DNA of 64,000 bases, from positions 7,069-71,068 of the forward strand of contig CANQWE010000001.1 of the NCBI GenBank assembly GCA_947627475.1, written 5' to 3'. This stretch comes from an uncultured Clostridia bacterium (lineage in GTDB: Bacteria; Bacillota; Clostridia; Oscillospirales; CAG-272). This document shows positions 44,391-57,836 of the stretch, piece after piece (within the stretch, counting starts at the first letter, position 1; every line of letters begins with the position of its first letter). Under the pieces are notes generated by a model that was given only the letters and a program-made list of their open reading frames with translations, searched no databases and had not been told where the DNA came from. The position numbers were made by a program, and so were the translations under genes.

Positions 44391-46940
44391 CTAAAAAGCT
44401 GTTTGTGATTTCACTTCATGAAAGCTATCGCCCCATTCGCTGACCGCATAAAATTTATTATTTATGTATAAAAGTGCAGTTTGATTTAAAAACGGATGAC
44501 AGCCACTGTTGTAGGAAGGAATGATTACAGATCGAGTAAATAAATTTCGTAAATACAAAGATTTATCATTTGAATTTATATATAGAATACTCTTTTCATT
44601 ATGCCATGGGTTTGCAATTACCTGCATAATACAGTATTTTCCATTCACTGTTTTTCCCATATAAGTATATCCATTGCCATCCATTTGAATTGGTAATTTG
44701 CTGCGAATATAATGGATTTCTTCACTACCATCGCAGTTGTTGTCTACAATAATCAAGGCATTGTTTTGGTTTTTCTGCATTTCGTCTACAGCAATGACAG
44801 GATAATCTACAAGGATATTCGGATAATCGGTATTTGTTTTCGGATGTGAAAAAGTGTCGCAAACACGTTTTAACATATCGTCCTGCGTGTTACAATTGAC
44901 AATTCTCAAGGCTGTCATATATACATCTAACAAGCCTGTTCCTTTGTAGTGACAAATACTTTTACAAAAGTCTTCTGAAACAATAAATCCCCCTGTAAGT
45001 GTGTTTTTCAATATGACTTCATTGTCATAATATTTTTTAAAAGTCAATTTTTTATCATTTATTAAAATAAAAAAGTTTTCCCTGTCCAGTTGCGGGGGCA
45101 AAATTATTTTCAGCCCAGTGCAGTTTTTTGCTTGAATAATCATATTGTATCCTACAATTTCCAGAGCGACTTCTGCATAGGATGTTCCCTTTAAAATTGA
45201 CTCAATTTCAATATAATAAGCTTTTCTGCAACGATTTCTTTCCGTACGGTAATAAATTATATCAGGGTACGCGTTAAGCTCTTCAGACATAAGTAAATCA
45301 ATGGATCGTTTTGTATATTGTACCCTTTTTAGCTCTATATCCGCATTATAATACTTGTGGACAAAAAGAAAATGCAAATTTCTAAGAGCTTTTTCAAGTT
45401 GTTTTCTTTCCTTTAGAAATGGATCGTTTTCATTAATGGATGCAATCAAATGAAACCAACGAACATTATATAGATTATCTATATTGGGCCGATATGCGTT
45501 TGTCAATCTTGTATAGATACCGGCAAACAAATGCGGAAACGCCTGCACTAAATTTATTAAGGCAATGTTTCCGGCGCAATGGGAAATTGCATAAATCCTT
45601 TTTTTATTGATACGAAACCGATGCAATATGTCTTTGATTTCATTCAGCAAAAATGTTTCACCCATATAACTTCCTAAAGTACACCCCCGGCCTCCTATGT
45701 CGGCGCAAATAACATCATCTCTTTCTGCAAAATGATTGGAATAATTGGACTCCAATATTTCAGGAGGATAATCTGATATATATCCATGAGAAATGGTGAG
45801 CAGGAGTGAATACTCTTTTTCAGGATCAAAATTTTGCGGCAAAACGATATAGTATTGATAAAAATGTTTATCCTCATCGGAATAATAGCAATAAAAATGC
45901 TGTCCGGGGTGATATAAGTACTCCTGGATTTTGTTGTTTTGCACTGCGTAAAGAATCTTTTTTAAATTGCTCCCATAATAAGTATCTGTGTCAACGGTTT
46001 TTAATTTGTCAATATAATAGTGAATTTCATTTTTTATAAGTTCGGGGATATTATTCCTTTTAAGCAGTTCCTTTGCTTGTTCTTGTAGTTCTCTTAAATA
46101 GTCCGGAGCAGCATAGTACCGAAAAAGCGGTATGGATTTACAAGATACCTGTCCGCAAGTGTCTTCTGCATAAAAAAATGCATAGAGCAGATTGTACTTA
46201 TCTTCCTCCATATTAGGCAAAAAGGAAAGATCTATTTTATATTCCTTTTGAAAACTTAACTTTGCTTCAAACAGTATTTTACCGGTTTTTTCGCTTTTTA
46301 TAAGCATCTTGATTTTCGAATTGTAGTCAAAATGGATCAAGTCCAGGGGGATCAGCGAAAATGCAAAGATTTTATCTTCCTGAATAAAAATGGATTGTAC
46401 ATTGATAAGAAAATCCTTTGGTTTAAACCAGTAATTTTGATCCGTCAGAGACAACAGCGAACCGCAGGATTTATTTATGCTTTCTATTCTGACTGTAGGA
46501 ACCGTTTGACAATAGGAAAGCAAAACACCATATTCAATACAAAATATATTATATCCTTTATTCAATGTAACAGTATACAACATGTTTTCATGGCCAATAA
46601 ATACAATTTTTCCGTTGAGCCAATGTCTGAATTTGTCGTTTTTATCTCCTGCTATCCGAGGAAAATATGTGATTTGCGTTTCTTCCTCTGCTTCGACAAT
46701 AAAAAAATGTACATATTTTCTATAAAACCCATGTGGTGTTTCCTCATTTCCTGAAGCGTTGTGTATTTCCGTTTCCATACGGTAGCCTTTACACAAATGC
46801 ATGATATATTCGATTTCAGGAATAGAGTTTTCGTAATAGTTATATTTTGTCCAATCGTACAGCTTTTTGGAAATTACGCCCATTTTATCCGGCATGATCG
46901 CTTTGTCCGTCAGTTTGTATGTAATATCCAGTAATTTCAT
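44391..46940 (-). CDS. Large cytoplasmic protein with central S9/esterase-like alpha/beta-hydrolase domain carrying Cys at the nucleophile elbow
   Basis: YYIVLPQNFDPEKEYSLLLTISHGY, ADIGGRGCTLGS, KKRIYAISHCAGNIALINLVQAFPHLFAGIY (Sm-x-Nu-x-Sm with Cys), downstream ENDPF and a His. ATG 46940 (MKLLDITYKL) is preferred over the track start at 46958. Confidence 0.5.
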   Translation of the reverse strand: MKLLDITYKLTDKAIMPDKMGVISKKLYDWTKYNYYENSIPEIEYIMHLCKGYRMETEIHNASGNEETPHGFYRKYVHFFIVEAEEETQITYFPRIAGDKNDKFRHWLNGKIVFIGHENMLYTVTLNKGYNIFCIEYGVLLSYCQTVPTVRIESINKSCGSLLSLTDQNYWFKPKDFLINVQSIFIQEDKIFAFSLIPLDLIHFDYNSKIKMLIKSEKTGKILFEAKLSFQKEYKIDLSFLPNMEEDKYNLLYAFFYAEDTCGQVSCKSIPLFRYYAAPDYLRELQEQAKELLKRNNIPELIKNEIHYYIDKLKTVDTDTYYGSNLKKILYAVQNNKIQEYLYHPGQHFYCYYSDEDKHFYQYYIVLPQNFDPEKEYSLLLTISHGYISDYPPEILESNYSNHFAERDDVICADIGGRGCTLGSYMGETFLLNEIKDILHRFRINKKRIYAISHCAGNIALINLVQAFPHLFAGIYTRLTNAYRPNIDNLYNVRWFHLIASINENDPFLKERKQLEKALRNLHFLFVHKYYNADIELKRVQYTKRSIDLLMSEELNAYPDIIYYRTERNRCRKAYYIEIESILKGTSYAEVALEIVGYNMIIQAKNCTGLKIILPPQLDRENFFILINDKKLTFKKYYDNEVILKNTLTGGFIVSEDFCKSICHYKGTGLLDVYMTALRIVNCNTQDDMLKRVCDTFSHPKTNTDYPNILVDYPVIAVDEMQKNQNNALIIVDNNCDGSEEIHYIRSKLPIQMDGNGYTYMGKTVNGKYCIMQVIANPWHNEKSILYINSNDKSLYLRNLFTRSVIIPSYNSGCHPFLNQTALLYINNKFYAVSEWGDSFHEVKSQTAF

Positions 46941-47059
46941 TGGTTTTATTCCTTTCAAAAGAATCTGCTTCGGATATTATTCTAAGGGGAAACTTGGGGC
47001 AAGCGCACGACAGCACAGGTCGCGTACTATCTCCCCAGTTTCAAATTTGCTTCGGACAA

Positions 47060-48865
47060 TTACTCTGATACCGGGGGAGCGGCGGCTTCCTGATATTTTT
47101 TTGCCTGGACCCGGAACATTTCAGCGTATTTACCATTCATCCGCATCAATTCTATATGTGCTCCGCATTCGACGATTTCACCGTTTTCCAAAACATATAT
47201 CCTATCCACATCCCGCGTCGTTGAGAGTCGATGGGAAATCGTGATAACCGTCTTTTCCTGTGCAAATGCCTGTACATTTTTGTTGATTTCATATTCAGCA
47301 ACAGGATCCATAGCAGAGGATGGTTCATCCATAATGATGATGTCATATGGACGGACGAGCACCCGCGCTATAGCAAGTTTTTGTGCTTCGCCGCCGGAAA
47401 GATTTATACCTGTATCATCAAATTCTTTGGTCAGTCCGGTTTGTATCCCGCGAGGCAGGTTTTTTAATCTGTCGCTGAATGTACACAATTCCAGCGCCTT
47501 AATAATCGAAGCCTTTTCCTCTCCATCGTAACTGTCGCGCAGGACATTTTCTGCGATGGAAGTGGCAAAGATCTGAAAATCCTGCAGTACCACGCCAAAA
47601 CGGGATTGGTAGGACCTGCATGCATATTTCCTGATATCCATTCCATTATAAAGGATCTTTCCCTCCACCGGGTCATAAAGATGCAGCAACAGCTTAATCA
47701 GGGTGGTTTTGCCTGCGCCGTTATATCCTACCAGCGCGATTTTTTCCCCGCGTTTTATAGAAAAGTCAATATGGCGCAGAACTGGTTTATTTACAGCGTA
47801 ACCAAAAGAGACATTTTGCAGGGTCAGCGACTCGAAGGGCTCTGGCACCATAGCATCCTCCGGGGAGGAGACGGTATACTCCATAAACGCGCGCAGCTTT
47901 TTTATATAAATACCATGCTCCGGAAGCTTTACAAGCTTGTCCACAATATCCTGCAGACACCATCTGAGCGCCCAAAAAGACGACAAGGCCACTGCAAGTC
48001 CAGAAATCGACACGGTATTGGAAATCATAATTTGATACAGCAAAATGATGTAAATAAAAGGTTCCACAGCACTTGTAAGTATTTTGCCTGCCATAACATT
48101 TATGCAGTTTTTTTTCAAATACTTCTCTTCAACCTCCCGAATCTGTTCAAGCGTTTCCCTATGTTTGTCCCAGATCAGTTCGTTTACGTGGCTGATTCTG
48201 ACCTCCTTTGCAGTATCCGGAAGGGAATAGATCCTCTCATAGTAGCTTATTTTCCGATTTTTAGGCGTTGTTTCCAATGCACTTTGTAATTGAATCTTTG
48301 CGCTGGCTTTTTGTATAAACAACGAAAGAATACTTGCGGCGACAGCTGCCAGACTCAGTGCCGGACTGATGGAAAAAAAGAGCGTTACAATCGTAATAAA
48401 ACTCGTAGATGATAAGATAATAGCCGACAAGGTTTCCATAAGCCCAACGGCACGGGTATCACTTTGACTGACAGACCAGACAAAATTGTCATAAAACTCT
48501 GTATCATCGTAACTGGAGATGGGGATGCTTTTGGAGATCTCAAACAGCTCTGTATGCATTCGATATTCCAGTACCTGCCTTTTGCAGCGGCGCGTCACAT
48601 TGTAGTAGTACTGCTTAATGATTTGAAAAATGACAATAAAAGCAAAGATTCCTGCAATGCCCCCAAGAGCAGTGATAAACGACGCGTTGTTATTGATATA
48701 GTCATAAAATACCTTGATGAACAACACCTGAACAGAGTTATTGAGACCCTCCAACACACCGAAAATCAGTTCCCATATGAGCAGTCCGGGAGTGAATTTC
48801 CAAATGAGCCGAAGCATGAACCAGTCGTTTTTCAAGTTTTCCAAACGATCTCGCTTCTTTTTCAA
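47060..48865 (-). CDS. ABC exporter, fused permease/ATPase (heterodimer partner 2)
   Basis: 6 TM N-terminal half. GYNGAGKTTL, LSGGEAQKLAIAR, IIIMDEPSSAMD. ATGA overlap with the upstream ABC gene. No N-terminal peptidase domain. Confidence 0.85.
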   Translation of the reverse strand: MKKKRDRLENLKNDWFMLRLIWKFTPGLLIWELIFGVLEGLNNSVQVLFIKVFYDYINNNASFITALGGIAGIFAFIVIFQIIKQYYYNVTRRCKRQVLEYRMHTELFEISKSIPISSYDDTEFYDNFVWSVSQSDTRAVGLMETLSAIILSSTSFITIVTLFFSISPALSLAAVAASILSLFIQKASAKIQLQSALETTPKNRKISYYERIYSLPDTAKEVRISHVNELIWDKHRETLEQIREVEEKYLKKNCINVMAGKILTSAVEPFIYIILLYQIMISNTVSISGLAVALSSFWALRWCLQDIVDKLVKLPEHGIYIKKLRAFMEYTVSSPEDAMVPEPFESLTLQNVSFGYAVNKPVLRHIDFSIKRGEKIALVGYNGAGKTTLIKLLLHLYDPVEGKILYNGMDIRKYACRSYQSRFGVVLQDFQIFATSIAENVLRDSYDGEEKASIIKALELCTFSDRLKNLPRGIQTGLTKEFDDTGINLSGGEAQKLAIARVLVRPYDIIIMDEPSSAMDPVAEYEINKNVQAFAQEKTVITISHRLSTTRDVDRIYVLENGEIVECGAHIELMRMNGKYAEMFRVQAKKYQEAAAPPVSE

Positions 48866-50673
48866 GTGTCATCGCCCCCTTTGATATAGTTTTCTGCCTG
48901 GATACGAAACAACTTTGCATATTCTCCGTTTTTGTCCATGAGTTCCTTGTGATTGCCGGATTCTAAGATCCGTCCGTTTTCCAGCAAATAAATCCTGTCT
49001 GCCAATGTTGCGGAGGACAAACGGTGTGAAATCAGGATCATGGTGCGATTGCGGCAGGCTTTGATCATATTTTCGTACATTTCATACTCTGCGATGGGAT
49101 CTAAGGCAGAGGAAGGCTCGTCCAATATAACAACAGGGCAATCCTTTGCATACACATGGGAAATCGCCAGCTTCTGATTTTGACCTCCGGACAGGATTTC
49201 CCCCTCATTGTCAAATTCACGGTCGAGCACTGTATGTATGCCGGATGGCATTTGCCTGACACGATTATACAATCCGCTTTTTTGCAGCGCGTCAATTACG
49301 ATCGGATCGTCATCGTCCTGCGGCCGCCTAAGCAGTACATTTTCCTTGACAGTCATGGAGAAGTGGCGATAATCCTGCAGCACGGTAGCAAAAAGATCAT
49401 GGTATGTAGACAAACGATACTTCTTAATATCCCTGCCGTTGAGTTCAATGACGCCTTCTGACGGATCATATAAACGGAGAAGCAGTTTGATCAGCGTAGT
49501 TTTTCCCGCTCCGTTGTGCCCTACGATCGCAATCTTTTCTCCCTCGCGGATACGGAGAGAAATATCCTTTAGTATGTATTCGTTGTGTTCTCCATGATAT
49601 TTAAAGGAGACATGCTTGAGCGAAATATCCCCGGCCTTTGCAGAGGGTGCTTCCATATCTTCTCGGATCCCCTGCTGATACTCCATAAATTGTCTTAAAT
49701 TATTTATATACAGAGAATGCGAATACATTTGTGCGATGCTGGCATTCAGAGTGTCAATGCTTGCGCTTACCCGCGCCACTGTATTGATCAGCACAAGACA
49801 GTCTCCATAAAGCATTCGTTTTGTTCCCAGCGTTTGCCATGCAGCATACGCAAACAGAAGAGAATGAGATAAAAAGGTACTGGCAACAATGATCAGCAAC
49901 TCCCAGAAAGCCAGACGTACGCCCTTGGAACGATATATGCGAATAATTTCATCGGCTGCCTCTTTGTACTGCCTTAAAATGACCTTAGAAATATTAGACA
50001 GGCGCAATTCGGCTGCGTAATCCCGTAGATAAAATGTTCTTACAGTATATTGCTTTTTTCGCTCGGCACTTGTTTTGGATTGGTCCAAGTCAAAACTCAA
50101 ATAGTTTTTTTTCTTCCGGATTTTATTTACAAGAAAGGGGAAAAAAGCAAATATCAGTACCAGCGGATCGATCAGGCACGCAAGGATGCCGCTCCCCACC
50201 AAGGAAATTCCGGCGTTGATGACCGTAATGGAACTATTGAATACTGCGTCTACACGACCGGAGCATTCGGCCATCGCACGGGTATATGTATTATAATACT
50301 CCGGGTCCTCGTAGCAAAACAGCTCACATTCAGCCATCTTTTTCAGGGACATTGTTTTCATTTTGCGATGGATCGTATATGTAAAATACGGCTGTAGCTT
50401 GACATCCACGCAGGATGTCACGATGTGATAAACCACATAAATCAAAAACAGGATACACAGAAACTTGACAGCGTCAAAATAATTTCCGCCGGTTTGTGCG
50501 ATGTTTACCGCATAGCGAAGGAAATACAGGTTGACCAGACCCAGCAAAGTATCAAGAACTGTAATAAGCGTCGTATATAATATTTTCCACGGACACGCCT
50601 TCCATAAAAGCCTCAGCATATAAAAATTGTTGGACAGCGCCTTCAGAAAGGACTCTTTGTTTTTCTTTTTCAT
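48862..50673 (-). CDS. ABC exporter, fused permease/ATPase (heterodimer partner 1)
   Basis: GHNGAGKTTL, LSGGQNQKLAISH, VVILDEPSSALD. Start ATG 50673 (MKKKNKE) or GTG 50685. Confidence 0.85.
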   Translation of the reverse strand: MKKKNKESFLKALSNNFYMLRLLWKACPWKILYTTLITVLDTLLGLVNLYFLRYAVNIAQTGGNYFDAVKFLCILFLIYVVYHIVTSCVDVKLQPYFTYTIHRKMKTMSLKKMAECELFCYEDPEYYNTYTRAMAECSGRVDAVFNSSITVINAGISLVGSGILACLIDPLVLIFAFFPFLVNKIRKKKNYLSFDLDQSKTSAERKKQYTVRTFYLRDYAAELRLSNISKVILRQYKEAADEIIRIYRSKGVRLAFWELLIIVASTFLSHSLLFAYAAWQTLGTKRMLYGDCLVLINTVARVSASIDTLNASIAQMYSHSLYINNLRQFMEYQQGIREDMEAPSAKAGDISLKHVSFKYHGEHNEYILKDISLRIREGEKIAIVGHNGAGKTTLIKLLLRLYDPSEGVIELNGRDIKKYRLSTYHDLFATVLQDYRHFSMTVKENVLLRRPQDDDDPIVIDALQKSGLYNRVRQMPSGIHTVLDREFDNEGEILSGGQNQKLAISHVYAKDCPVVILDEPSSALDPIAEYEMYENMIKACRNRTMILISHRLSSATLADRIYLLENGRILESGNHKELMDKNGEYAKLFRIQAENYIKGGDDT

Positions 50674-50771
50674 AGACGTCCCCACTTCTCAGATTTTTCT
50701 ATAATTTCCCCGTAAAAATGATTTTTGTAAGCCAATATTAATAAAAATTTATATTGATTCAGGTGGCAGGA

Positions 50772-51590
50772 TCATTTATAGTCGTCACTATAGGCGATCC
50801 AGCGTCGCGGCAGTTTGAATCCGCCTCCGGTTTGTAATTCCATATTATTCAGCAATATGGAATTACAGCACCCCAAAGTATAAATATGCAGTATATCACC
50901 CTGAAAAGCGGTACAGACAGGGGGCAGCGCCTCATATGGCTCCATAGAGAAATACGAAAATTTCAGACCGGCGGTTTGCTGGATCCTGCAGTGATACCGT
51001 GCAAAATTTAAAAGCATTTTAGTCATAAAACAAATTCCAGTATAAAGCTGTGCAGAACAGTATTCCTTAATGTCTCCGTTTTCAATCGGCACATATGGTG
51101 CATTTGTATGTATCTGTGTGGTCAGATCAATAATATAATAATGCTGATTGGTATATATGTAGTTCATGGTATGCCCCGACCCATCCGGACGGATATATTG
51201 GATATATCCCCTGTCGGGATAACGATTCTGAATAACATAGTTGAACCACGCAGCCGCGGATGCACAGCACCCCTCTCCGGTTTCCACAGCATATTTACCG
51301 GATTTGTGCATCTCCCAGGTTCTCTCGCCCGCTTGAAAATAAACGATATCGTTTGTTTCTTCAAACAGGCGAACACACTGAAACAGTTGGATCGCTTCAT
51401 ATGCATTGAATCCCAGCGACCGTATTTTATCCGCCGGTTTTCGCGCAGTCAATGCATATATTTCCTCGTTTGTAAAACGGCTGCTTCCCAAAACATTCAC
51501 GGGGACCCAAAACAAATCTTTTGCAATTTGTGTTTTAAAATCTGCCCCATGCCGCAAATTGATGGTATCATACGAAGTGTGAAGGTACAT
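50772..51590 (-). CDS. Hypothetical Cys-His-Asp protein, transglutaminase/papain-like fold (peptidase or acyltransferase)
   Basis: GEGCCASAAAWFNYV ... GSGHTMNYIYTNQHYYIIDLT has the spacing of a transglutaminase-core C...H...D triad. AGGGAGGG SD before ATG 51590; alternative ATG 51611 abuts the upstream stop. Confidence 0.45.
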   Translation of the reverse strand: MYLHTSYDTINLRHGADFKTQIAKDLFWVPVNVLGSSRFTNEEIYALTARKPADKIRSLGFNAYEAIQLFQCVRLFEETNDIVYFQAGERTWEMHKSGKYAVETGEGCCASAAAWFNYVIQNRYPDRGYIQYIRPDGSGHTMNYIYTNQHYYIIDLTTQIHTNAPYVPIENGDIKEYCSAQLYTGICFMTKMLLNFARYHCRIQQTAGLKFSYFSMEPYEALPPVCTAFQGDILHIYTLGCCNSILLNNMELQTGGGFKLPRRWIAYSDDYK

Positions 51591-51611
51591 AAGCCCTCCC
51601 TTTCTGTACAT

Positions 51612-53420
51612 TTAATCACAGAAAAAGTTGATACAATCTTCAAAAAGGCGCCGGTCATCGTCATCATTGCCCAAAATATAAGCTGGCTTTCCGGTCGCTC
51701 CGGTAACCGTCTTACAAAACCTTTTCAGATCGGATGCGGGTATTTCTTTTTTTACCATGCTCATCGCGCTCCATTCATTTGGAAATCCTATCGGAAACAC
51801 TTCGAATGCAATAACATGGCAATCTGCCAGGGATTCCACAAAAGCGGCCGATCTTTTGATCATATCTATAGAATCGTGGGGATTGATGCAAAGTATTGCC
51901 GCGTCAGGATTTGCTCCAAGCAAAAACTCCGTGGAAGCGATGTTATAGGTAGACAAATTGTCAAAGGAAAGGGTAGCGACGCCGGATTGCGCACCTGCCA
52001 AAATGATATCCGGTTCTTGGATATCCAGCTGATGCATCAAATAATTTACGTGTTCAATGCCAAAATGTCCACTTATATCCACCGTTCCGTCATAGCCGTA
52101 TGGATAAACGGCCTCCATGCCGAAAAGGCCGCCTTCCGGCTCACTGGACAGTTGACCAATTTCGTAACCGTTTTCCAAAAATAATTCTCTCAGTTTCAGC
52201 TGTAAGGAAAACTTCCCCTGTTGGCTGGAGGTTCCTACAACAGCCAGTACTGGAGAAAACACCTCATATAATTTCCCAAATTTATTAGAGGACTGTTGGG
52301 TTCGGTTTATAACGGGAACATAAATTTTCTTTTTCCTTTCAGCAGATAATGCACTTACATAATCGGTATCAAAGGATACAATGTTGATATTGTTTTTTAT
52401 ACATGCATCTATTATCCTCTGCTTATAATCAACAAAAACCTTTATAGACAATTCATTTACATGTCCGATAATAAAAGTGTCTATTCCCTCCAAATCGATA
52501 TTTTCAATATTTTCAATCGTACAGCACAGATCCCTGCGACTGTTAAATACCGTCTTTCCCACATGTCCAGAGAATCTGCTGTCATAAAGCCGTTCAATCG
52601 TAAACGGCAGCAAATGCGCAAATCGAATCAGGCTTTGCGTTTCTTTGTTGTAAGGAAAAACGGCGGCCATACGGATGTCAAACAGATCTGTTTTATATTC
52701 CGGACTTTTGTCATTAAAAGATACAACCTTGCTTGCATTTTCTTTTAATACCGGCAAAATGTTTTTATAATCTACTCCATGATCAAGCAACGTGCAGATT
52801 TTTGCTGTCAAAACAGGCGCCACAAAACTGTTTCCCCTCACTATAGCATACTCTGGACCCGTCCAGGCTACTCTTTGAGGAGATGCCATCATTCCAATAT
52901 TTATTAGGCTATTTTCCACATAGATATATTCCTGAAAGCTATTTAGCTGCATTGTAGAATCAACGCCGATTACACAAGGATAAGCAGCAGGATAAGAAAT
53001 GGCTCCCATATTGCAAAACGCTGAAACGATCATGACTCCGCTACGGTAAAGCTGATCGCATATTTCCTCAAGTTCAGGCAAATGCTTTCGAATGCCGGCG
53101 CTAATATTTATAATCTGACAAGCGAGCGAATCATTGTGGGTATAAATATATCGCAGCGCGTCAATCAACACCTCCGGTTCAGCCTCCTCATTGCTCCCTT
53201 CTATAATTTTGAAAGAGGTGATTTTAACATTTTTTTCATTTTTATATAAAACATGAGCAACAGCTGTTCCGTGACCATTTTGTATATTGTTCTGCCGCGT
53301 TACCTGCCAGCCTGTGCCATCATCAAGATAGGAATATTCCGTTATATCTGCATTGGATAGCCCTTTATGCTGCGTATCTACACCTGAATCCAGGATTGCC
53401 ACATGAACGATATTTTTCAT
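51612..53420 (-). CDS. Cytoplasmic S8 subtilisin-like peptidase fused to a C-terminal P-loop (DUF1611-like / 'peptide maturation system' type) domain
   Basis: VAILDSGVD (Asp), NGHGTAVAHV (His), NISAG (oxyanion Asn), GNSFVAPVLTA (Ser). No signal peptide. The C-terminal half has VLAVVGTSSQQGKFSLQLKL, which is P-loop-like. Confidence 0.7.
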   Translation of the reverse strand: MKNIVHVAILDSGVDTQHKGLSNADITEYSYLDDGTGWQVTRQNNIQNGHGTAVAHVLYKNEKNVKITSFKIIEGSNEEAEPEVLIDALRYIYTHNDSLACQIINISAGIRKHLPELEEICDQLYRSGVMIVSAFCNMGAISYPAAYPCVIGVDSTMQLNSFQEYIYVENSLINIGMMASPQRVAWTGPEYAIVRGNSFVAPVLTAKICTLLDHGVDYKNILPVLKENASKVVSFNDKSPEYKTDLFDIRMAAVFPYNKETQSLIRFAHLLPFTIERLYDSRFSGHVGKTVFNSRRDLCCTIENIENIDLEGIDTFIIGHVNELSIKVFVDYKQRIIDACIKNNINIVSFDTDYVSALSAERKKKIYVPVINRTQQSSNKFGKLYEVFSPVLAVVGTSSQQGKFSLQLKLRELFLENGYEIGQLSSEPEGGLFGMEAVYPYGYDGTVDISGHFGIEHVNYLMHQLDIQEPDIILAGAQSGVATLSFDNLSTYNIASTEFLLGANPDAAILCINPHDSIDMIKRSAAFVESLADCHVIAFEVFPIGFPNEWSAMSMVKKEIPASDLKRFCKTVTGATGKPAYILGNDDDDRRLFEDCINFFCD

Positions 53421-53448
53421 AAAGCTTGCCTCTTTAATTGTTTGTATG

Positions 53449-53493
53449 TTTTTTTGAACAGTGAAAGGATTCCCCTTTCACTGTTCAAAAAAA
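53449..53493 (-). promoter_or_regulatory. Perfect 20-bp stem-loop immediately downstream of the candidate precursor ORF (partial terminator / mRNA stabiliser)
   Basis: tttttttgaacagtgaaagg-attcc-cctttcactgttcaaaaaaa. It begins 3 nt after the precursor stop codon. There is no 3' U-tract on the operon strand. Confidence 0.6.
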
Positions 53494-53495
53494 CA

Positions 53496-53606
53496 TTACC
53501 ACTTAAGCCCGCACATAGCGAAACTTGCTATACCTGAACAAGATTCAAAGCTGTAGGTCATTACCTTTACACGCTTGGCGCATGGCTTTCTAAGCTGCTT
53601 TTTCAT
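53496..53606 (-). CDS. Candidate RiPP precursor peptide (36 aa): MKKQLRKPCAKRVKVMTYSFESCSGIASFAMCGLKW
   Basis: Near-perfect SD AAGGAGGTGA 7 nt before ATG 53606. It has 3 Cys and a basic N-terminus, sits between the ACP-like and protease genes, and has hairpins on both sides. The same frame is open up to ATG 53744 (82 aa, ATGA overlap with the upstream gene), so the start is ambiguous. Confidence 0.55.
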   Translation of the reverse strand: MKKQLRKPCAKRVKVMTYSFESCSGIASFAMCGLKW

Positions 53607-53740
53607 GATTTCACCTCCTTTTATGTAATTATAAGAAGGGTGCAATGCCGCTGCATAGCCATTTAAATGGAGTACGAACGCATACGCAGCCCCTTCAAAT
53701 GGCCTTGCGGCATTTTCCCCGTCTTTACACAGCAAAGCGA

Positions 53741-53986
53741 TCATTCCTTCTTCAGCATCTCAACTACATCGCACACATTGCCGATGTTGCGCATCCTCCC
53801 CTGCAGTAAATATTCATCTGGGATTTCGATATCAAATGTGCTTTCAACTTCGACGATAAAGGAAATATACGTGATGGAATTATCCAAGTAGTCAAGAATA
53901 TCCACCGTATCGTCATCGTCTACAACAAAGCCCAGACTATTAAAGCATTCGATTACCTTTTTTCGTGTATCTTCCACCTGTTTCAC
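53741..53986 (-). CDS. Acyl-carrier-protein-related small protein (81 aa)
   Basis: LDYLDNSITYISFIVEVESTFDIEIPDEYL aligns by eye with the ACP helix II region ([25 protein letters not shown]). Ser is retained but preceded by Asn. The start abuts the stop of the SPASM gene. Confidence 0.6.
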   Translation of the reverse strand: MKQVEDTRKKVIECFNSLGFVVDDDDTVDILDYLDNSITYISFIVEVESTFDIEIPDEYLLQGRMRNIGNVCDVVEMLKKE

Positions 53987-55306
53987 CTACAATTCTATAA
54001 AACTATCTTTATTCATTTTATATAGAACTTTTAACACATCATTTAAATATGCATATTCACGACCGCAATTCAACTGCGCCGGATCCATGGGATTTTTATT
54101 GAAAAACAAGAGATTGCGTACACAGCTTTTTCCCTTGCAGATAGAATAGTCGGTACAACTTTTGCATCCCTCAATTGCCTTCGCGGACAAGGAATACCAG
54201 TAAGCGGCCTTGTACTCATCTATTTCCAGCTTTCCATTTATTAGTTTACCGATAGGATATTCCTGCAGCTGGGGACACAAAAATACATCTCCCAGAGTGT
54301 TTACCGTATATGTGTTTTTTTGTGCATATGAGCAAATTGCGTGAGACAGCTGTCCTTGCAAGGCACTCATATTCAGCTGCCAGTCTCCTTCTGCTAATGT
54401 CGCATAGACGTCTGACATAGAATCGATTAGCTTTCCACGCATTGCATTTATGCGGTCGCCTCCCCAATCGTAAACCGGACTGAATAGATAGGTAAAGCGG
54501 TTGTCTTTTCCAAACTCCTCCTGCACAAACGACAAATAGTCATGTAAGTTCTCTAAGACATCTGTCGTTATATTGGTCCGCAGTACGATGCGAAATTGCT
54601 GAGATTTTACATGATCACGGATACAGCGCAGATTTTCAATGATTTTATGGAATGTTCCCCCACCGTTTTTCAGCGGCCTGCTAACGTTATGCGTTTTTGC
54701 AGTTCCGTCAATCGTTATAATATACTCAAAAACTCTATACCGCAAAAGCCTTTTAAATGTTTCGTAGTCCAGCAGATAACCGTTTGTGGTAATAGAGGCA
54801 GAATACCGCCTCGATGTTTTTCTGCAGATATCGATAAATGCCTCAGATAAGGTATACAACGAATCCCTTGCTAAAAGAGGCTCTCCCCCAAACCAGGCAA
54901 CATTCATTTCGGTATATTGGCCGATGTTCCTTTTGGCATACGTAATGAGGTCCTGTATAACACTTTCTTTTATATGGGATCTTTGAAAGTCGTCAAAACA
55001 ATACTGACAACCAAAATTGCAGCTTTCTGACGTCAATATTGTAAAATGCAGCGAACTGCTATTGATGATTTTTTCATGTAAATCATCCCCTTGTATGCTT
55101 TCGTCTATAGAAGCGGGCACTACAAATCCATGGTCCCTTAACCTGCCCATCATTTTTTCCGGAACTGTATCAATACTAAGCGGTAAATTGCGAAGGGATA
55201 TTGGCTGCAAATATCCCATTGTATTTCGCAGCTTATTATAAAGCAAAAGCGTTTCCGTTTTGTCTATGTATGTGTAGTGATTAAACTTTGAAAACTTCAA
55301 TTCCAT
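53987..55306 (-). CDS. Radical SAM / SPASM-domain peptide maturase
   Basis: SESCNFGCQYCF (CX3CX2C). The C-terminus has CSYAQKNTYTVNTLGDVFLC (CX13GX4C), CKSCTDYSICKGKSC and a further Cys, consistent with auxiliary Fe-S clusters. Confidence 0.85.
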   Translation of the reverse strand: MELKFSKFNHYTYIDKTETLLLYNKLRNTMGYLQPISLRNLPLSIDTVPEKMMGRLRDHGFVVPASIDESIQGDDLHEKIINSSSLHFTILTSESCNFGCQYCFDDFQRSHIKESVIQDLITYAKRNIGQYTEMNVAWFGGEPLLARDSLYTLSEAFIDICRKTSRRYSASITTNGYLLDYETFKRLLRYRVFEYIITIDGTAKTHNVSRPLKNGGGTFHKIIENLRCIRDHVKSQQFRIVLRTNITTDVLENLHDYLSFVQEEFGKDNRFTYLFSPVYDWGGDRINAMRGKLIDSMSDVYATLAEGDWQLNMSALQGQLSHAICSYAQKNTYTVNTLGDVFLCPQLQEYPIGKLINGKLEIDEYKAAYWYSLSAKAIEGCKSCTDYSICKGKSCVRNLLFFNKNPMDPAQLNCGREYAYLNDVLKVLYKMNKDSFIEL

Positions 55307-55307
55307 T

Positions 55308-56849
55308 TTATCGCCTGCCCGTTTTATTTGCCAAATACTGCAAATATCTTTTATCCTTGGACAATTTCCTCATGACAACCTGTATATCGCTGTAACACTT
55401 TCGGATAAGTGGATTATATTTCTTCATTATTTTATGTACGTCGGTTTCTGTAAAAATCAGTTCAAAAAACATTTCAAATTTTATATCGCGTAAATCTTTT
55501 ATAATGGGCCGGGTTGCTTTCTGAAAGTTGTGGACCGCCCCCTCGTCATACACATTCATTACACTCAAAAAACAAGATCGAAAATCAAGATATATTGCTT
55601 CTTCCGTGTAATACTGGGATAACCGGTTTGCCGCGCCAAGTCTTTCAGCAATATGACCAGCATCCGGATGCAAATAATTGTAGTCAAAGGTGTTCAGGTA
55701 AGAAAAGGTATCCTTTAGCAGTCCCATGTTTTCTGTTCTGGTATACATTTCGGAGCCATAATTGACTGAAAGCCGTGTATTAAAATGGTAATCGTAGAAG
55801 AAACCATACTTTTTTGAAAATGTATAATTTGTTTGAATGGATTCTACCGTGCTAAGCGGATTCAAGTTTATAAATCCACAATCGATATAAAAATCATTCT
55901 TTAAAAGCAGTTCTAAAGTCGCAATATTCTCATCCTTTGAAACACGTTTGTTATAATAAATCAAATCATTGTCATCAAAAGACTCGATTCCCAGCAGTAC
56001 AAATAAAAATCCCGATTCTTTCATTTTTTTGAGCAAGGGCTGATCTTTCTCCGTAAAGCCTTTTACTCTCGTATTAAAATTTATCGTAAATTTTTGTGGA
56101 TACTGTAATAATAAATCACAAAACGCATCGATTCGTTGTTTCCCGATAGTACCTGGGCTTTCAAATGCACTATCATTTATTAGGAAAGCAATAATTCCAT
56201 ATCGTTCATACGTATGGACTATTTCTTCAAAAACATCTTGTATATTTCTCCCACGCCATACGATCCTCTTTTTGTTCAGACAATAATTTTGGGTACAAAA
56301 ATGGCACCGGCCTATACAGCCCCGCGCTGCTTCTATTTTAACAATTGGCAGATTTTTGAGGTATTTGTCTTGCAGCAATACATGATCCACCACATGGTAA
56401 TGTTTCATGTTGAAAACATATTGCTTTTTTAGGGACAAATCATCGCCATTTCTGTATATATAATTTCCATTTTCTATACCACCTAAATAATCTATGATTG
56501 GTATTTCATAATCCCCCAAAACAATAAAATCGATTTCCGGACAATCTTCCAATATTTTTTCTGCACACAATGTTGCAAAAGAACCTACGAGAAAAACTTT
56601 GATTTTTTTCTCAATATTTTTGATTTTTCTTACCAGTGAATAGATAAACGGAACGGTCGCTGCGTCAGAATTAAAACATAAATGGGAATACTTGCAGAAA
56701 TCTTCAATAGCAATGCTGCCTTCATGGTCAAATGCTGCGTTCAGAGACACAATATGAACAGTACATATTTCTGTCAACATGGAATACAAATGCTCCAGAT
56801 GAACATCCTCTTTTATAACTTTGTTATAAACGTTTGCCAATAATACCAT
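55308..56849 (-). CDS. B12-binding-domain radical SAM enzyme (class B, methyltransferase-like)
   Basis: The N-terminal Rossmann-like segment KVFLVGSFATLCAEKILEDCPEIDFIVLGDYEIPIIDYL, then EAARGCIGRCHFCTQ (CX3CX2C). Confidence 0.8.
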   Translation of the reverse strand: MVLLANVYNKVIKEDVHLEHLYSMLTEICTVHIVSLNAAFDHEGSIAIEDFCKYSHLCFNSDAATVPFIYSLVRKIKNIEKKIKVFLVGSFATLCAEKILEDCPEIDFIVLGDYEIPIIDYLGGIENGNYIYRNGDDLSLKKQYVFNMKHYHVVDHVLLQDKYLKNLPIVKIEAARGCIGRCHFCTQNYCLNKKRIVWRGRNIQDVFEEIVHTYERYGIIAFLINDSAFESPGTIGKQRIDAFCDLLLQYPQKFTINFNTRVKGFTEKDQPLLKKMKESGFLFVLLGIESFDDNDLIYYNKRVSKDENIATLELLLKNDFYIDCGFINLNPLSTVESIQTNYTFSKKYGFFYDYHFNTRLSVNYGSEMYTRTENMGLLKDTFSYLNTFDYNYLHPDAGHIAERLGAANRLSQYYTEEAIYLDFRSCFLSVMNVYDEGAVHNFQKATRPIIKDLRDIKFEMFFELIFTETDVHKIMKKYNPLIRKCYSDIQVVMRKLSKDKRYLQYLANKTGRR

Positions 56850-57102
56850 TCCTGTACATCACTTTCTGAATGTATTTTTTAAATAGTCCATTGCAAGCAC
56901 GTTTATGACTATATCTGTCCTTTATCTACAAAAAGCAAATATGTTCGTAAGTCAACAGCCCATACCGCCGCAGCAGATATACACATTACAAAACATGTGG
57001 AAGGGGGGCATACTGAACATACGTTTGCAAAGAACCGCTGGATTTCAAGATACCGAAAAATGACGTCTTAGATAAATTTTATAAGAATTATAACTTTGTT
57101 TT

Positions 57103-57131
57103 ATTTTAACATTCTCTGTTTTAATTGTCAA
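57103..57131 (-). promoter_or_regulatory. Sigma-A type promoter of the peptide-maturation operon
   Basis: Minus strand TTGACA (57131-57126), 17 nt, TAAAAT (57108-57103). It lies ~250 nt upstream of the first gene. Confidence 0.5.
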
Positions 57132-57610
57132 TATATTCCATAAAAAAAGTTTAACGCTGTTATAAATTTAGAAAAAATGATGAAAAAAAAAAACATAATG
57201 TAAATATTTTATATTCCATCTATTAACTGATGCAGGAGCGGAGACGTAAATATTTACAAATTCGCTGTCTGTGGTGCTGTAAAATTACACTTGAAAATGA
57301 AAAACTGTTGAAAGCCTTTGTATGATAAGCACCTGCAAATGGTTTAAATCCAGTCGCTTCTATTCCGGGCAGAGCATGGATCCAAGCGCTTCGGAGTTTT
57401 TTAAGACATCCGCCTCTTCGGACAGACTGCTTATGCGTTGAACATATGCAAACATGCAACAGAACAGATGCGGTAGGACAGTGCTTCCCGGATGGAACAA
57501 TTGATTCAGCGAATCATCAGCTGACGGAAAAGAGGCCCTGTGGCCTCTTTTCCTAAGTTTCTGATTCTGAAAAGGGTAAAAAAGAGTAAAAGGCCATTTT
57601 TGCAAAATAA

Positions 57611-57640
57611 AAAGTCCTGTAAACACTAAGTTTACAGGAC
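57611..57640 (-). terminator. Intrinsic terminator after tRNA-Trp
   Basis: Minus strand gtcctgtaaac-ttag-tgtttacaggac followed by TTTTTATTTT. Confidence 0.8.
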
Positions 57641-57647
57641 TTCCATC

Positions 57648-57723
57648 TGGCAGGGGCACAAAGACTCGAACTCTGGACACGTGGTTTTGGAGACCACTGC
57701 TCTACCAACTGAGCTATACCCCT
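57648..57723 (-). tRNA. tRNA-Trp (anticodon CCA), CCA end encoded
   Basis: Minus strand AGGGGTATAGCTCAGTTGGTAGAGCAGTGGTCTCCAAAACCACGTGTCCAGAGTTCGAGTCTTTGTGCCCCTGCCA. Cloverleaf folded by hand: 7-bp acceptor, D arm GCTC/GAGC, anticodon stem GTGGT/ACCAC with loop CTCCAAA, T arm CAGAG/CTTTG with TTCGAGT. Confidence 0.95.
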
Positions 57724-57755
57724 ATATAAATTATCGCATACCGATAACGGTATGT

Positions 57756-57784: not shown

Positions 57785-57836
57785 TAGCTTTTGCAAATTT
57801 TTTTACAGGAGCCCTGGAAAAGGACTCCTGTGTGAT

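What the first reader, a model, noticed from the sequence alone, without database searches (positions are those of the whole stretch)
53987..56849. Tandem B12-dependent and SPASM radical SAM enzymes acting on a 3-Cys peptide
Two different rSAM classes are translationally coupled (stop and start 1 nt apart). SPASM enzymes in RiPP pathways typically make Cys-to-carbon thioethers (sacti-/ranthipeptides) or other cross-links. Class B (B12) rSAMs typically methylate unactivated carbons. The candidate core (YSFESCSGIASFAMCGLKW) offers 3 Cys plus many potential acceptor and methylation sites. The SPASM motif also deviates slightly from the textbook pattern (CX2CX5CX4C rather than CX2CX5CX3C).
Basis: partly seen in the sequence, partly recalled or inferred. 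Interest (0 to 1): 0.65.

Follow-up and report, generated by a model that had tools for sequence, protein, structure and literature searches.

The report
Uncharacterised two-radical-SAM peptide gene cluster
This is a real, recurrent but chemically unstudied gene cluster in which a small 36-residue peptide is probably cross-linked and further tailored by two different radical SAM enzymes, then cut and exported; it is a good natural-product lead rather than a new principle.

Summary
The two genes are real. On the minus strand, a 513-aa cobalamin-type (class B-like) radical SAM gene (56849..55308) is followed after one nucleotide by a 439-aa CteB-like radical SAM/SPASM gene (55306..53987). They open an operon in a low-GC island beside tRNA-Trp. 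Downstream lie a carrier-protein-like gene, a 36-aa precursor (MKKQLRKPCAKRVKVMTYSFESCSGIASFAMCGLKW), a strong hairpin, a subtilase/P-loop fusion, a Cys-His-Asp enzyme and two ABC exporters.

The same module, with homologous precursors, recurs in at least 10 divergent lineages. That strongly supports a RiPP pathway.

- Only two Cys are conserved. The third lies in the leader and varies.
- CX2CX5CX4C is the norm in this SPASM clade (84 of 120 homologues), not a peculiarity.
- The B12 domain is degenerate here, so cobalamin use is unproven.
- The B12-like gene is accessory: present in 7 sampled lineages and not found in at least 4 related ones.

The cluster resembles Haft's CLI_3235/CcpM system in architecture but fails every curated threshold. 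No product of either system has a solved structure.

The most likely chemistry is Cys-derived thioether cross-linking plus C-methylation. Both are inferred, not shown.

The parts
57648..57723 (-). tRNA-Trp (CCA) at the upstream edge of the low-GC island that carries the operon
   Evidence: ARAGORN. GC is 0.34-0.43 over 44001-58000 against about 0.53 in the flanks. No att-like repeat was found and no integrase gene was noticed.
57103..57131 (-). Best sigma-70-like promoter match upstream of the operon (TTGACA-17-TAAAAT with a TG extension)
   Evidence: 11 of 12 matches. This is a consensus match only; promoter-like sites are not enriched over shuffles in the region.
55308..56849 (-). Class B-like radical SAM enzyme (513 aa): N-terminal Rossmann (B12-binding-like) domain, CX3CX2C radical SAM barrel, C-terminal helical domain
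   Evidence: Pfam B12-binding 28.3 bits (below the 32.1 cutoff) and Radical_SAM 24.9 bits (below the 29.5 cutoff). No NCBIfam family reaches its cutoff. AF2 model pLDDT 88. Foldseek top hits are OxsB 9e-23, AprD4, TsrM, MgmA, TokK and CysS. C178/C182/C185 are invariant. The ATG start matches the orthologue N-termini.
53987..55306 (-). Radical SAM/SPASM peptide maturase (439 aa) with an RRE-like N-terminal domain; CteB-like
   Evidence: Radical_SAM 56.6 bits. Best NCBIfam hit is TIGR04463 at 175.8 bits, cutoff 525. Best PDB sequence hit is CteB 5WGG, 1.6e-20. AF2 pLDDT 94. Foldseek gives CteB 9e-17, then anSME. Cys96/100/103, 325, 344, 381, 384, 390, 395 and 414 are invariant in the 10 nearest homologues.
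53741..53977 (-). Carrier-protein-like gene (78 aa from the GTG at 53977; the mechanical ORF starts at 53986)
   Evidence: PP-binding 18.7 bits and TIGR04069 25 bits, both below cutoff. A profile of 12 orthologues hits DltC and ACPs at 4e-7. The Ser of the D-S motif is invariant in 12 of 12. The gene call in L001 and the orthologue N-termini support the shorter start.
53496..53606 (-). Precursor peptide gene, 36 aa: MKKQLRKPCAKRVKVMTYSFESCSGIASFAMCGLKW
   Evidence: AAAGGAGGTG lies 5 nt upstream of the ATG. Orthologous 32-45 aa peptides sit at the same position in L003, L004, L005, L006, L007, L025, L098 and L100. M1, K7, P8, Y18, C23, C32 and W36 are invariant.
53444..53499 (-). Long perfect RNA hairpin between the precursor stop codon and the protease gene
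   Evidence: dG -33.4 kcal/mol, z -9.9, 0 of 200 shuffles as stable. Hairpins at the same position but with unrelated sequence occur in L003, L004, L006 and L007, z -4.6 to -6.2.
51612..53420 (-). Fusion protein (602 aa): N-terminal intracellular subtilase (S8, QhpE-like) and C-terminal DUF1611/TIGR04066-like P-loop domain
   Evidence: Peptidase_S8 51.4 bits and DUF1611 33.7 bits. QhpE 93.4 bits (cutoff 165) and TIGR04066 74.4 bits (cutoff 200). PDB subtilisins 2e-11. Read directly from the sequence: DSG, HGT and GNSFVAP motifs and no signal peptide.
50772..51611 (-). Unannotated 272-279 aa protein with an invariant Cys-His-Asp triad (transglutaminase / arylamine-N-acetyltransferase-like)
   Evidence: No Pfam hit for the window protein itself. 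An alignment of 8 orthologues shows C116, H147 and D162 invariant. The profile hits PDB 3LNB N-acetyltransferase at 0.0034, aligning the triad residues. One orthologue hits Transglut_core at 2e-5.
48862..50685 (-). ABC exporter half-transporter 1 (permease plus ATPase)
   Evidence: ABC_tran 104 bits. Similar to NHLP bacteriocin export and MsbA-type ABC families, all below cutoff.
47060..48865 (-). ABC exporter half-transporter 2; overlaps the previous gene by 4 nt
   Evidence: ABC_tran 106.9 bits and ABC_membrane 21.7 bits.

Best explanation
The region is the front of a RiPP (ribosomal peptide natural product) operon.

Proposed pathway:
1. A 36-aa precursor is made. It has a short basic leader (MKKxLRKP...V-[M/L/I]-x-Y-x-x-E) and a core of about 15-19 residues ending in the invariant C-G-L-[K/R]-W.
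2. The precursor is bound by the RRE-like N-terminal domain of the SPASM enzyme.
3. The SPASM enzyme cleaves SAM at its CX3CX2C cluster, abstracts a hydrogen atom from a core residue, and joins that carbon to the thiolate of Cys23 and/or Cys32. The thiolate would be held at an auxiliary [4Fe-4S] cluster, as in CteB or PapB. The product carries one or two intramolecular thioether rings.
4. The class B-like radical SAM enzyme, translated from the same message one base upstream, adds a second tailoring step. The most likely reaction is methylation of an unactivated carbon.
5. The subtilase domain removes the leader.
6. The ABC exporter pair secretes the product.

The carrier-protein-like protein, the P-loop domain and the Cys-His-Asp enzyme belong to the conserved module. 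Their role is unknown.

Shown here: the genes, their folds and cluster motifs, the conserved synteny, the precursor family and the hairpin. Inferred: every chemical step.
For: Genes and junction.

SPASM enzyme:
- It is full-length CteB-like by sequence (5WGG, 1.6e-20).
- It is CteB-like by predicted fold, including the N-terminal domain (5WHY, 9e-17).
- Its nearest characterised curated family is the thioether-forming PapB (116 bits).
- It has the seven SPASM cysteines plus a nearly invariant C161.

Second enzyme: the fold matches cobalamin radical SAM enzymes OxsB, TsrM, TokK, CysS and MgmA. Relatives in sister clusters pass Pfam B12-binding clearly.

Peptide as substrate:
- Homologous peptides lie at the same position in at least 10 lineages, with two invariant Cys and an invariant C-terminal Trp.
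- A strong ribosome-binding site precedes the gene.
- A position-conserved hairpin follows the stop codon.

Partnership of the two enzymes: junctions are tight in all B12+ loci, and identities fall in parallel.

Protease and exporters.

Precedent for thioether-forming SPASM enzymes and their link to QhpD: PMC8326336.
Against: - No chemistry is tested.
- The SPASM enzyme fails every curated family cutoff. The best is 175.8 against 525.
- SPASM enzymes also make C-C, C-O and other links. DynA and cyclophane-forming families also score, at 81 and 57 bits. The invariant [K/R]-W end would suit such chemistry.
- The Rossmann domain of this sub-clade has lost four glycines that are conserved in 81-86 % of 135 aligned family members.
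- Pfam B12-binding is below threshold.
- AprD4 is the second distinct protein in the fold ranking. To my knowledge it binds no cobalamin.
- B12-type radical SAM enzymes in RiPP pathways can cross-link rather than methylate (PMC12257519).
- The B12-like gene was not found in closely related loci that keep the same peptide family (L006, L100, L025 and probably L005). It is therefore not needed for the core modification.
Confidence: 0.45

Rival explanations
1. The SPASM enzyme does not make a thioether. It makes a carbon-carbon or carbon-oxygen cross-link that involves the invariant C-terminal Trp. Candidates are a Lys/Arg-Trp link as in streptide, a Trp cyclophane, or a Cys-Trp link reminiscent of the cysteine tryptophylquinone of QhpC. 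The two Cys would then serve another role, such as cluster binding or a disulfide.
For: W36 is invariant as the last residue, and C-G-[L/M/I]-[K/R]-W is almost invariant, in 9 aligned precursors. A more distant B12+ relative ends in C-G-F-N-W. SuiB and DynA-type enzymes share the fold and score as relatives. The protease domain is most like QhpE, from the pathway that builds a Cys-Trp cofactor.
Against: The thioether-forming relatives score higher than DynA, the cyclophane families and SuiB: PapB 116 bits, CteB 1.6e-20 by sequence and 9e-17 by fold. Lys is freely replaced by Arg and, once, by Asn. More distant sister clusters have Cys-rich cores without a terminal Trp.
Confidence: 0.2
2. The first enzyme is not a cobalamin-dependent methyltransferase. 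Either it has lost cobalamin and runs plain radical SAM chemistry with a structural Rossmann domain (AprD4-like), or it uses cobalamin for a non-methylating reaction such as a cross-link or rearrangement (OxsB-like, or like the biphenomycin B12-rSAM).
For: Four family-conserved glycines are replaced in the window clade: GG.fAT becomes VGSFAT and GEGE becomes GDYE. Pfam B12-binding is below cutoff. The best sequence and fold match is OxsB, which to my knowledge is a ring-contraction enzyme rather than a methylase, followed by AprD4. The highest NCBIfam score is BchE, a cyclase. PMC12257519 describes a B12-rSAM that forms a C-C macrocycle.
Against: G89, G112 and E115 are retained; G112 and E115 are conserved in 97-99 % of the aligned family, and G89 and E115 in at least 90 % of the 46-sequence alignment. 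The Rossmann fold is predicted with high confidence. To my knowledge, most characterised class B enzymes that act on peptides are C-methyltransferases.
Confidence: 0.35
3. One or both radical SAM enzymes act on something other than the small peptide. A possible substrate is an acyl or aminoacyl group carried on the carrier-protein-like protein, with the peptide serving as acceptor or scaffold.
For: A carrier-protein homologue with an invariant Ser is encoded in every locus. Structurally related class B enzymes TokK and CysS were crystallised with pantetheinylated substrates (entry titles). One member of the wider B12-like family sits next to an NRPS condensation domain. A Cys-His-Asp acyltransferase-like enzyme and BtrH_N-like proteins co-occur.
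Against: The carrier-like gene is also present in the loci where no B12-like gene was found, so it is not that enzyme's dedicated partner. No adenylation enzyme, acyl-CoA ligase or phosphopantetheinyl transferase is encoded in the operon. The SPASM enzyme has an RRE-like domain and peptide-maturase neighbours.
Confidence: 0.1

Closest known systems
CLI_3235 / CcpM 'Cys-rich peptide maturation system' (NCBIfam TIGR04065, TIGR04066, TIGR04068, TIGR04069 plus a subtilase and an ABC exporter); example SacP23 of Paenibacillus polymyxa (PMC10731318) and a Roseburia cluster (PMC4573289)
   Same: The same parts list: radical SAM/SPASM maturase, acyl-carrier-related small protein, TIGR04066-type P-loop protein, S8 subtilase, ABC export, and a short precursor with an MKK..L.KP-type leader.
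   Different: Every component scores far below the curated cutoffs: 74/500, 25/70 and 74/200, and at most 13/26 for the precursor. Here the subtilase and P-loop protein are fused. The core has 2 Cys and a fixed CGL[K/R]W end instead of a Cys-rich core. A class B-like radical SAM gene and a Cys-His-Asp enzyme are added. The product structure of the known system is itself unsolved: PMC10731318 reports activity, an unexpected mass and an Edman-blocked N-terminus.
CteB / SCIFF and PapB ranthipeptide maturases (thioether-forming radical SAM/SPASM enzymes)
   Same: RRE, radical SAM barrel and SPASM architecture. CteB is the best solved-structure match by sequence and fold. The substrate is a Cys-containing peptide. 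PMC8326336 describes an open coordination site on one auxiliary cluster in CteB.
   Different: 16-18 % identity. One extra residue in the last SPASM spacing, CX4C against CX3C. NCBIfam SCIFF scores 60/425 and PapB 116/340. The precursor is unrelated to SCIFF peptides.
Class B (cobalamin-dependent) radical SAM enzymes: OxsB, TsrM, TokK, CysS, MgmA; RiPP C-methyltransferases (TIGR03975) and the biphenomycin B12-rSAM
   Same: Rossmann domain, radical SAM barrel and helical C-terminal domain. CX3CX2C motif. A RiPP setting.
   Different: 12-15 % identity to all solved members. TIGR03975 scores 41.7/281.85. Rossmann-domain glycines are lost. The enzyme belongs to a separate family of about 300 representatives at E<=1e-30, with no curated model matched in 10 sampled members.
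Quinohemoprotein amine dehydrogenase maturation (QhpD SPASM enzyme plus QhpE subtilase acting on QhpC)
   Same: A SPASM enzyme paired with an intracellular pro-domain-less subtilase that acts on a small Cys/Trp-containing polypeptide. QhpE is the best curated hit for the protease domain. QhpD makes Cys-Asp and Cys-Glu thioethers (PMC8326336).
   Different: QhpE scores 93/165 and QhpD 50/453. There are no dehydrogenase subunit genes here, and the exporters point to a secreted peptide.

Membership tests
Radical SAM superfamily (both enzymes) | CX3CX2C motif for the SAM-binding [4Fe-4S] cluster within a partial TIM barrel | tested here: met
   C178-X3-C182-X2-C185 and C96-X3-C100-X2-C103 are invariant in orthologues. 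Pfam Radical_SAM scores 56.6 bits for the SPASM enzyme; the first enzyme scores 24.9, below the 29.5 cutoff. Both predicted folds match solved radical SAM enzymes.
SPASM subfamily | C-terminal seven-Cys motif CX9-15GX4C ... CX2CX5CX3C ... C for two auxiliary [4Fe-4S] clusters | tested here: met
   C325-X13-G339-X4-C344, C381-X2-C384-X5-C390-X4-C395 and C414. The last spacing is X4, not X3, through a one-residue insertion relative to CteB. The same variant occurs in 84 of 120 homologues. The fold matches CteB and anSME over the whole SPASM domain. Cluster content itself is not testable here.
Class B (cobalamin-dependent) radical SAM enzymes | N-terminal Rossmann-type B12-binding domain fused to the radical SAM domain | tested here: met
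   The AF2 model shows a beta-alpha-beta domain at residues 1-122. Foldseek top hits are OxsB, TsrM, TokK, CysS and MgmA over both domains. This establishes fold only.
Class B (cobalamin-dependent) radical SAM enzymes | Actual binding and use of cobalamin | not testable with these tools
   Pfam B12-binding scores 28.3 against a cutoff of 32.1. Four family-conserved glycines are replaced. AprD4 shares the fold.
NCBIfam TIGR04463 (radical SAM/SPASM RiPP maturase, 'rSAM_vs_C_rich') | Score at or above the curated cutoff (525 bits) | tested here: not met
   175.8 bits, full-length alignment.
CLI_3235/CcpM system (TIGR04065, 04066, 04068, 04069) | Each component reaches its curated cutoff | tested here: not met
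   CcpM 74.4/500, TIGR04069 25/70 and TIGR04066 74.4/200. The window precursor has no hit to TIGR04065, and an orthologue scores 13.1/26.
CLI_3235/CcpM system (TIGR04065, 04066, 04068, 04069) | Gene set: radical SAM maturase, ACP-related protein, TIGR04066-type protein, subtilase, ABC exporter and a short peptide | tested here: met
   All are present in the window and in the orthologous loci examined, with subtilase and P-loop protein fused in all but L100. The reference gene set is described in PMC10731318 and PMC4573289.
Sactipeptides / ranthipeptides | Cys sulfur linked to the alpha (sacti) or beta/gamma (ranthi) carbon of an acceptor residue in the mature peptide | not testable with these tools
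   Needs MS/MS and NMR of the product. Here there is only enzyme similarity to CteB and PapB and two invariant Cys.
RiPP radical SAM C-methyltransferases (TIGR03975) | Score at or above the curated cutoff (281.85 bits) | tested here: not met
   41.7 bits.
Acyl carrier proteins | Four-helix carrier fold with a conserved D-S-x Ser for phosphopantetheine | tested here: inconclusive
   The profile hits DltC and ACPs at 4e-7, and Ser34 is invariant in 12 of 12. PP-binding is below cutoff at 18.7/20.8. The modification state is unknown and no phosphopantetheinyl transferase is encoded in the operon.

The most novel reading that the evidence does not exclude
The module makes a new class of peptide whose defining chemistry is not the default. 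In this reading, the degenerate-Rossmann radical SAM enzyme does non-methylating chemistry keyed to the V-[M/L/I]-x-Y junction or to the invariant C-x3-W end, for example a Cys-Trp or Lys/Arg-Trp link. The carrier-protein-like protein, the P-loop domain and the Cys-His-Asp enzyme then acylate the peptide after leader removal. That would be a carrier-protein-dependent acylation inside a RiPP pathway.
Probability: 0.15. Interest if true: 0.8.

Novelty: new variant of a known kind. Interest (0 to 1): 0.5.

Why it matters
Radical SAM-modified peptides from gut and soil Clostridia are a productive source of antibiotics and signalling molecules.

This cluster type combines two radical SAM classes with three further proteins of unknown role. 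I found no report of a solved product structure for it or for its better-known cousin, the CcpM/CLI_3235 system. The one expressed example of that cousin was active against MRSA and had an unexplained mass and a blocked N-terminus (PMC10731318).

The precursor is tiny, with a core of 15-19 residues. Natural variants are already in hand, as are related clusters in which no B12-like gene was found. Together these give an unusually clean system for assigning each enzyme's reaction. They also allow a test of whether a class B fold with a degenerate cobalamin site still uses cobalamin.

Tried and rejected
1. C-X8-C core as the signature of B12+ loci. Six B12+ precursors have C-X4-[S/T]-F-X2-C, but the more distant B12+ locus L101 has C-NGNW-C and L102 has a single Cys. 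I dropped this as a rule.

2. Rarity of the B12-like enzyme. The word-indexed search found only 5 close relatives. The exhaustive HMM search found 301 representatives at E<=1e-30, so the rarity claim is withdrawn. The precursor family does look rare, with 7 clusters among 5.8 billion proteins, though small ORFs are under-called.

3. Exclusive RiPP context for the B12-like family. This is rejected. One relative lies next to an NRPS condensation domain. Another lies with a 29-aa basic peptide and a class I aminoacyl-tRNA synthetase paralogue.

4. Mobile-element signature of the island. There is no att-like direct repeat of the tRNA end, and I noticed no integrase gene.

5. Literature. Searches for TIGR04463/04066/04068/04069, CcpM, CLI_3235, DUF1611 plus radical SAM, OhkG/FlmE/Clo7bot, and ACP-like plus RiPP found no characterisation of this system.

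6. Genome-collection scan with the SPASM profile. It still showed that none of 80 more distant loci has a B12-like gene within 7 kb.

7. The P-loop half of the fusion has no informative solved-structure relative by sequence.

8. The source organism could not be named from cluster look-ups.


Full report
**1. What is in the sequence**

The finding's coordinates cover two minus-strand ORFs. One runs 56849..55308 (513 aa) and the other 55306..53987 (439 aa). The first ends in TAA at 55310-55308. One base follows, then the ATG of the second. The '1 nt apart' observation is therefore correct.

Both genes lie in a block of low G+C that spans about 44000-57600. G+C there is 0.34-0.43 against about 0.53 on either side. 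The block abuts a tRNA-Trp gene at 57648-57723. I found no att-like repeat and noticed no integrase gene.

The whole block is one minus-strand gene string:
- class B-like radical SAM
- SPASM radical SAM
- a 78-aa carrier-protein-like gene (53977..53741), starting 9 nt after the SPASM stop codon (the mechanical ORF's GTG at 53986 directly abuts the stop)
- a 36-codon ORF (53606..53496) preceded by AAAGGAGGTG
- a perfect hairpin
- a 602-aa subtilase/P-loop fusion (53420..51612)
- a 272-279-aa protein without any Pfam match (51611..50772)
- two ABC half-transporters (50685..48862 and 48865..47060)
- an 855-aa ORF with no family match (46958..44391)

**2. The SPASM enzyme**

It has C96-X3-C100-X2-C103. 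It also has the SPASM cysteines C325-X13-G339-X4-C344, C381-X2-C384-X5-C390-X4-C395 and C414. All are invariant in its ten nearest homologues.

Alignment to CteB shows it is a one-residue insertion. It is the usual form in this clade. Of the 120 best homologues, 84 have X4, 6 have X3, 3 have other spacings and 27 did not match the search pattern.

No curated NCBIfam model is reached. The best hits are all peptide maturases:
- TIGR04463, 175.8 bits (cutoff 525)
- Clo7bot, 134 bits
- FlmE/OhkG, 131 bits
- geopeptide, 122 bits
- PapB, 116 bits
- CefB, 115 bits

Cofactor families score much lower: anSME 68 bits, QhpD 50, the tungsten-cofactor maturase 49 and NirJ 43.

The best solved structure by sequence is CteB (1.6e-20). 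An AlphaFold2 model built on 84 sequences has pLDDT 94. It shows an N-terminal beta-sheet-plus-helices domain at residues 1-85, of the kind that binds leader peptides. Foldseek ranks CteB first (9e-17, full length), then anSME, TigE, ChlB and SuiB.

**3. The class B-like enzyme**

It has C178-X3-C182-X2-C185. Its Pfam hits are weak and both sit below threshold: B12-binding 28.3 against 32.1, and Radical_SAM 24.9 against 29.5. No NCBIfam model comes close; BchE is best at 78 against 481.

An AlphaFold2 model (46 sequences, pLDDT 88) shows a Rossmann domain, a radical SAM barrel and a long helical C-terminal domain. Foldseek top hits are OxsB (9e-23), AprD4, TsrM, MgmA, TokK and CysS, followed by MiaB and RimO. 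The fold is therefore that of cobalamin radical SAM enzymes.

Cobalamin use is not established, for three reasons:
- To my knowledge, AprD4 shares this fold and binds no cobalamin.
- In an alignment with 132 family representatives, the window clade has replaced four glycines conserved in 81-86 % of the family. These are positions 17, 58, 88 and 114; 'GG.fAT' becomes VGSFAT and 'GEGE' becomes GDYE.
- On the other side, G89, G112 and E115 are kept.

The word-indexed search suggested the enzyme is very rare, with 5 close relatives. The exhaustive HMM search corrected this. It found 301 representatives at E<=1e-30, mostly 500-545 aa and matched end to end. None of the 10 I sampled reaches a curated family.

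**4. Is the small ORF the substrate?**

Gene neighbourhoods of homologues show a conserved module: SPASM enzyme, carrier-like protein, 32-45-aa peptide, S8-DUF1611 protein and ABC exporters. It occurs in L003, L004 (Fumia xinanensis, Oscillospiraceae), L005, L006, L007/L089, L025, L098/L099, L100 and L101. The Cys-His-Asp protein usually accompanies it. L102/L103 carry the same module around a shorter, 24-aa precursor.

The peptides are homologous:
- window: MKKQLRKPCAKRVKVMTYSFESCSGIASFAMCGLKW
- L003: MKKKLRKPRAKRVTVMAYSFESCAINATFDDCGLKW
- L098: MKKVLRKPYAVRIKVLAYDFEECSVSGTFNPCGLKW
- L004: MKLRKPSKRVAKVMIYSLECSKSSSFSGCGLRW
- L007: MKRKLRKPVARKMKAMLYSFKECSQSGTFTSCGLRW
- L005: MKKLVKPTFNAPKVSAYVFESGCNGVVGSFSYCGLKW
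- L006: MKKRLVKPATKQVMVAAYTAESCNGNFGTCGMRW
- L100: MKLRKPKSKHVYVRAYGLESCGTNPFSCGIKW
- L025: MKKLSKKPSKKSPKIILTKPEKKIISNVNAYGGESCGGGCSMLKW

The invariant residues are M1, K7, P8, Y18, C23, C32 and W36. Cys9 of the window peptide is not conserved, so the peptide has two conserved Cys rather than three.

A near-identical strain carries a natural core variant...YGFESCSQSASFAWCGLKW.

A long perfect hairpin follows the stop codon in the window (dG -33.4 kcal/mol, z -9.9). Hairpins also occur at the same place in L003, L004, L006 and L007, with unrelated sequence (z -4.6 to -6.2). To my knowledge, such a hairpin after the structural gene is common in bacteriocin operons.

The leader motif (MKK.L.KP ... 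[L/V/A]Y..E) is shared with many more distant clusters. Their cores are Cys-rich and lack the terminal Trp. Examples are eight tandem precursors in L008, plus L010, L016, L018, L022, L023 and L078.

**5. Relation of the two enzymes**

The B12-like gene is accessory.
- Present: the window, L003, L098, L004, L007, L101 and L102. In L102 two copies stand in tandem.
- Not found within the sequence available: L006, L100 and L025. It is probably absent from L005, where the contig ends 2 kb upstream.
- Not found within 7 kb in 80 more distant SPASM loci, 17 of which carry an S8-DUF1611 fusion.

Where present, it always sits immediately upstream of the SPASM gene (in L102, the SPASM-proximal of its two tandem copies), with gaps or overlaps of +4 to -14 nt. 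Its identity to the window enzyme falls in step with that of the SPASM enzyme. B12/SPASM pairs are 64/63, 51/52, 42/45, 34/40, 29/35 and 35/30 %. This fits long co-inheritance with occasional loss.

The wider B12-like family is not confined to this cluster type. One member lies next to an NRPS condensation domain. Another lies with a 29-aa basic peptide and a class I aminoacyl-tRNA synthetase paralogue.

One exploratory pattern emerged. The residue two before the conserved Tyr is M, L or I in all seven B12+ precursors that have the Tyr. L102 is ambiguous. The same position is S, A, R or N in the four loci without a B12-like gene. With 12 related sequences and many positions inspected, this is a lead only.

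**6. The other conserved proteins**

Carrier-like protein. A profile of 12 orthologues matches DltC and ACPs at 4e-7. The Ser of the D-S motif is invariant.

Fusion protein. It has an S8 domain with Asp, His and Ser motifs and no signal peptide, read directly from the sequence. Its best curated hit is QhpE at 93 against 165. The C-terminal domain is DUF1611/TIGR04066-like.

Unannotated 279-aa protein. C116, H147 and D162 are invariant. Its profile aligns these with the catalytic triad region of an arylamine N-acetyltransferase, 3LNB, at 0.0034. One orthologue matches Transglut_core at 2e-5. L005 and L006 add BtrH_N/phytochelatin-synthase-like proteins.

Together these hint at acyl transfer. 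That is a hypothesis only.

**7. Comparison with what is known**

The parts list matches Haft's CLI_3235/CcpM system (TIGR04065/66/68/69 plus a subtilase and an ABC exporter). That system is known mainly from genome mining (PMC4573289) and from one expression study. In that study SacP23 was active against MRSA, had an unexpected mass and had an Edman-blocked N-terminus, and no structure was reported (PMC10731318).

Every component here falls far below the curated cutoffs. The window system is therefore a cousin rather than a member. It differs in the fused protease/P-loop protein, the two-Cys CGL[K/R]W core, and the added class B-like and Cys-His-Asp enzymes. Literature searches found no characterisation of this variant.

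**8. Most likely mechanism and confidence**

The RiPP assignment is strong. I put about 0.9 on the peptide being the substrate of at least the SPASM enzyme.

Thioether formation from Cys23 and/or Cys32 is the best single guess, at about 0.55. It rests on the CteB and PapB similarity and on the two invariant Cys. A Trp-centred cross-link is the main rival.

C-methylation by the first enzyme is the default for the class, at about 0.45. The degenerate Rossmann motifs, the OxsB and AprD4 neighbours and the biphenomycin precedent (PMC12257519) keep non-methylating or cobalamin-free chemistry quite likely.

My overall confidence in the composite statement is 0.45.

**9. Verdict**

This is a genuine, recurrent and chemically uncharacterised RiPP cluster variant. 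It is a worthwhile discovery target but not a categorically new system.

Noticed in passing
window 44000-57650: The operon sits in a 13.6-kb low-GC island (0.34-0.43 against about 0.53) directly downstream of tRNA-Trp. I noticed no integrase gene and found no att-like direct repeat. Housekeeping genes (nadE-like on one side, murC-like and spoVG-like on the other, as read from the translations) flank it.
   Followed up: partly
window 44391-46958 (-): An 855-aa ORF lies at the end of the island, with no Pfam or NCBIfam match. It is present in the same-species contig L001 but not in the orthologous clusters of other lineages.
   Followed up: partly
window 53444-53499 (-); L003 4584-4637; L004 13291-13323; L006 9726-9762; L007 5473-5506: A long perfect hairpin follows the precursor stop codon in all five loci tested, with no sequence similarity between loci. 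None has a clear U-tract of an intrinsic terminator on the coding strand.
   Followed up: yes
window 50772-51611 (-): A protein without any family hit has an invariant Cys-His-Asp triad. Its profile weakly matches an arylamine N-acetyltransferase (3LNB, 0.0034), and one orthologue matches Transglut_core. Together with the carrier-like protein and the P-loop domain this suggests acyl transfer.
   Followed up: partly
L102 8001-17429 (and L103): A sister cluster has two class B radical SAM genes in tandem before the SPASM gene. Its precursor is only 24 aa (MKLKKKVKVRKQVILNGESNNSCY) and has a single Cys.
   Followed up: partly
L008 8700-10950: A Spirochaetaceae MAG carries eight tandem precursor genes with near-identical leaders (M.K..L.KPQS.ET.EN..VY.CE) and very different Cys-rich cores, downstream of a related SPASM enzyme and carrier-like gene.
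   Followed up: no
L007 1229-1807: An AgrB-family gene (quorum-sensing peptide processing) lies just upstream of the B12-like/SPASM pair in one orthologous cluster.
   Followed up: no
P0194 (near-identical strain): A natural variant of the window precursor has four core substitutions (S19G, G25Q, I26S, M31W). The leader, both Cys, Phe29 and CGLKW are unchanged.
   Followed up: no
L106 1232-6226; L104 186-3024: Members of the same B12-like family occur outside this cluster type. One lies with a 29-aa basic peptide (MKRKILVVKLSKPKTGKQVSICSQAVTDD) and a class I aminoacyl-tRNA synthetase paralogue. Another lies next to an NRPS condensation domain.
   Followed up: partly
precursor position 16 (window 53559-53561): The residue two before the conserved Tyr is Met, Leu or Ile in every B12+ precursor that has the Tyr, and Ser, Ala, Arg or Asn in the four related precursors from loci where no B12-like gene was found. 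The sample is small and not corrected for phylogeny.
   Followed up: partly
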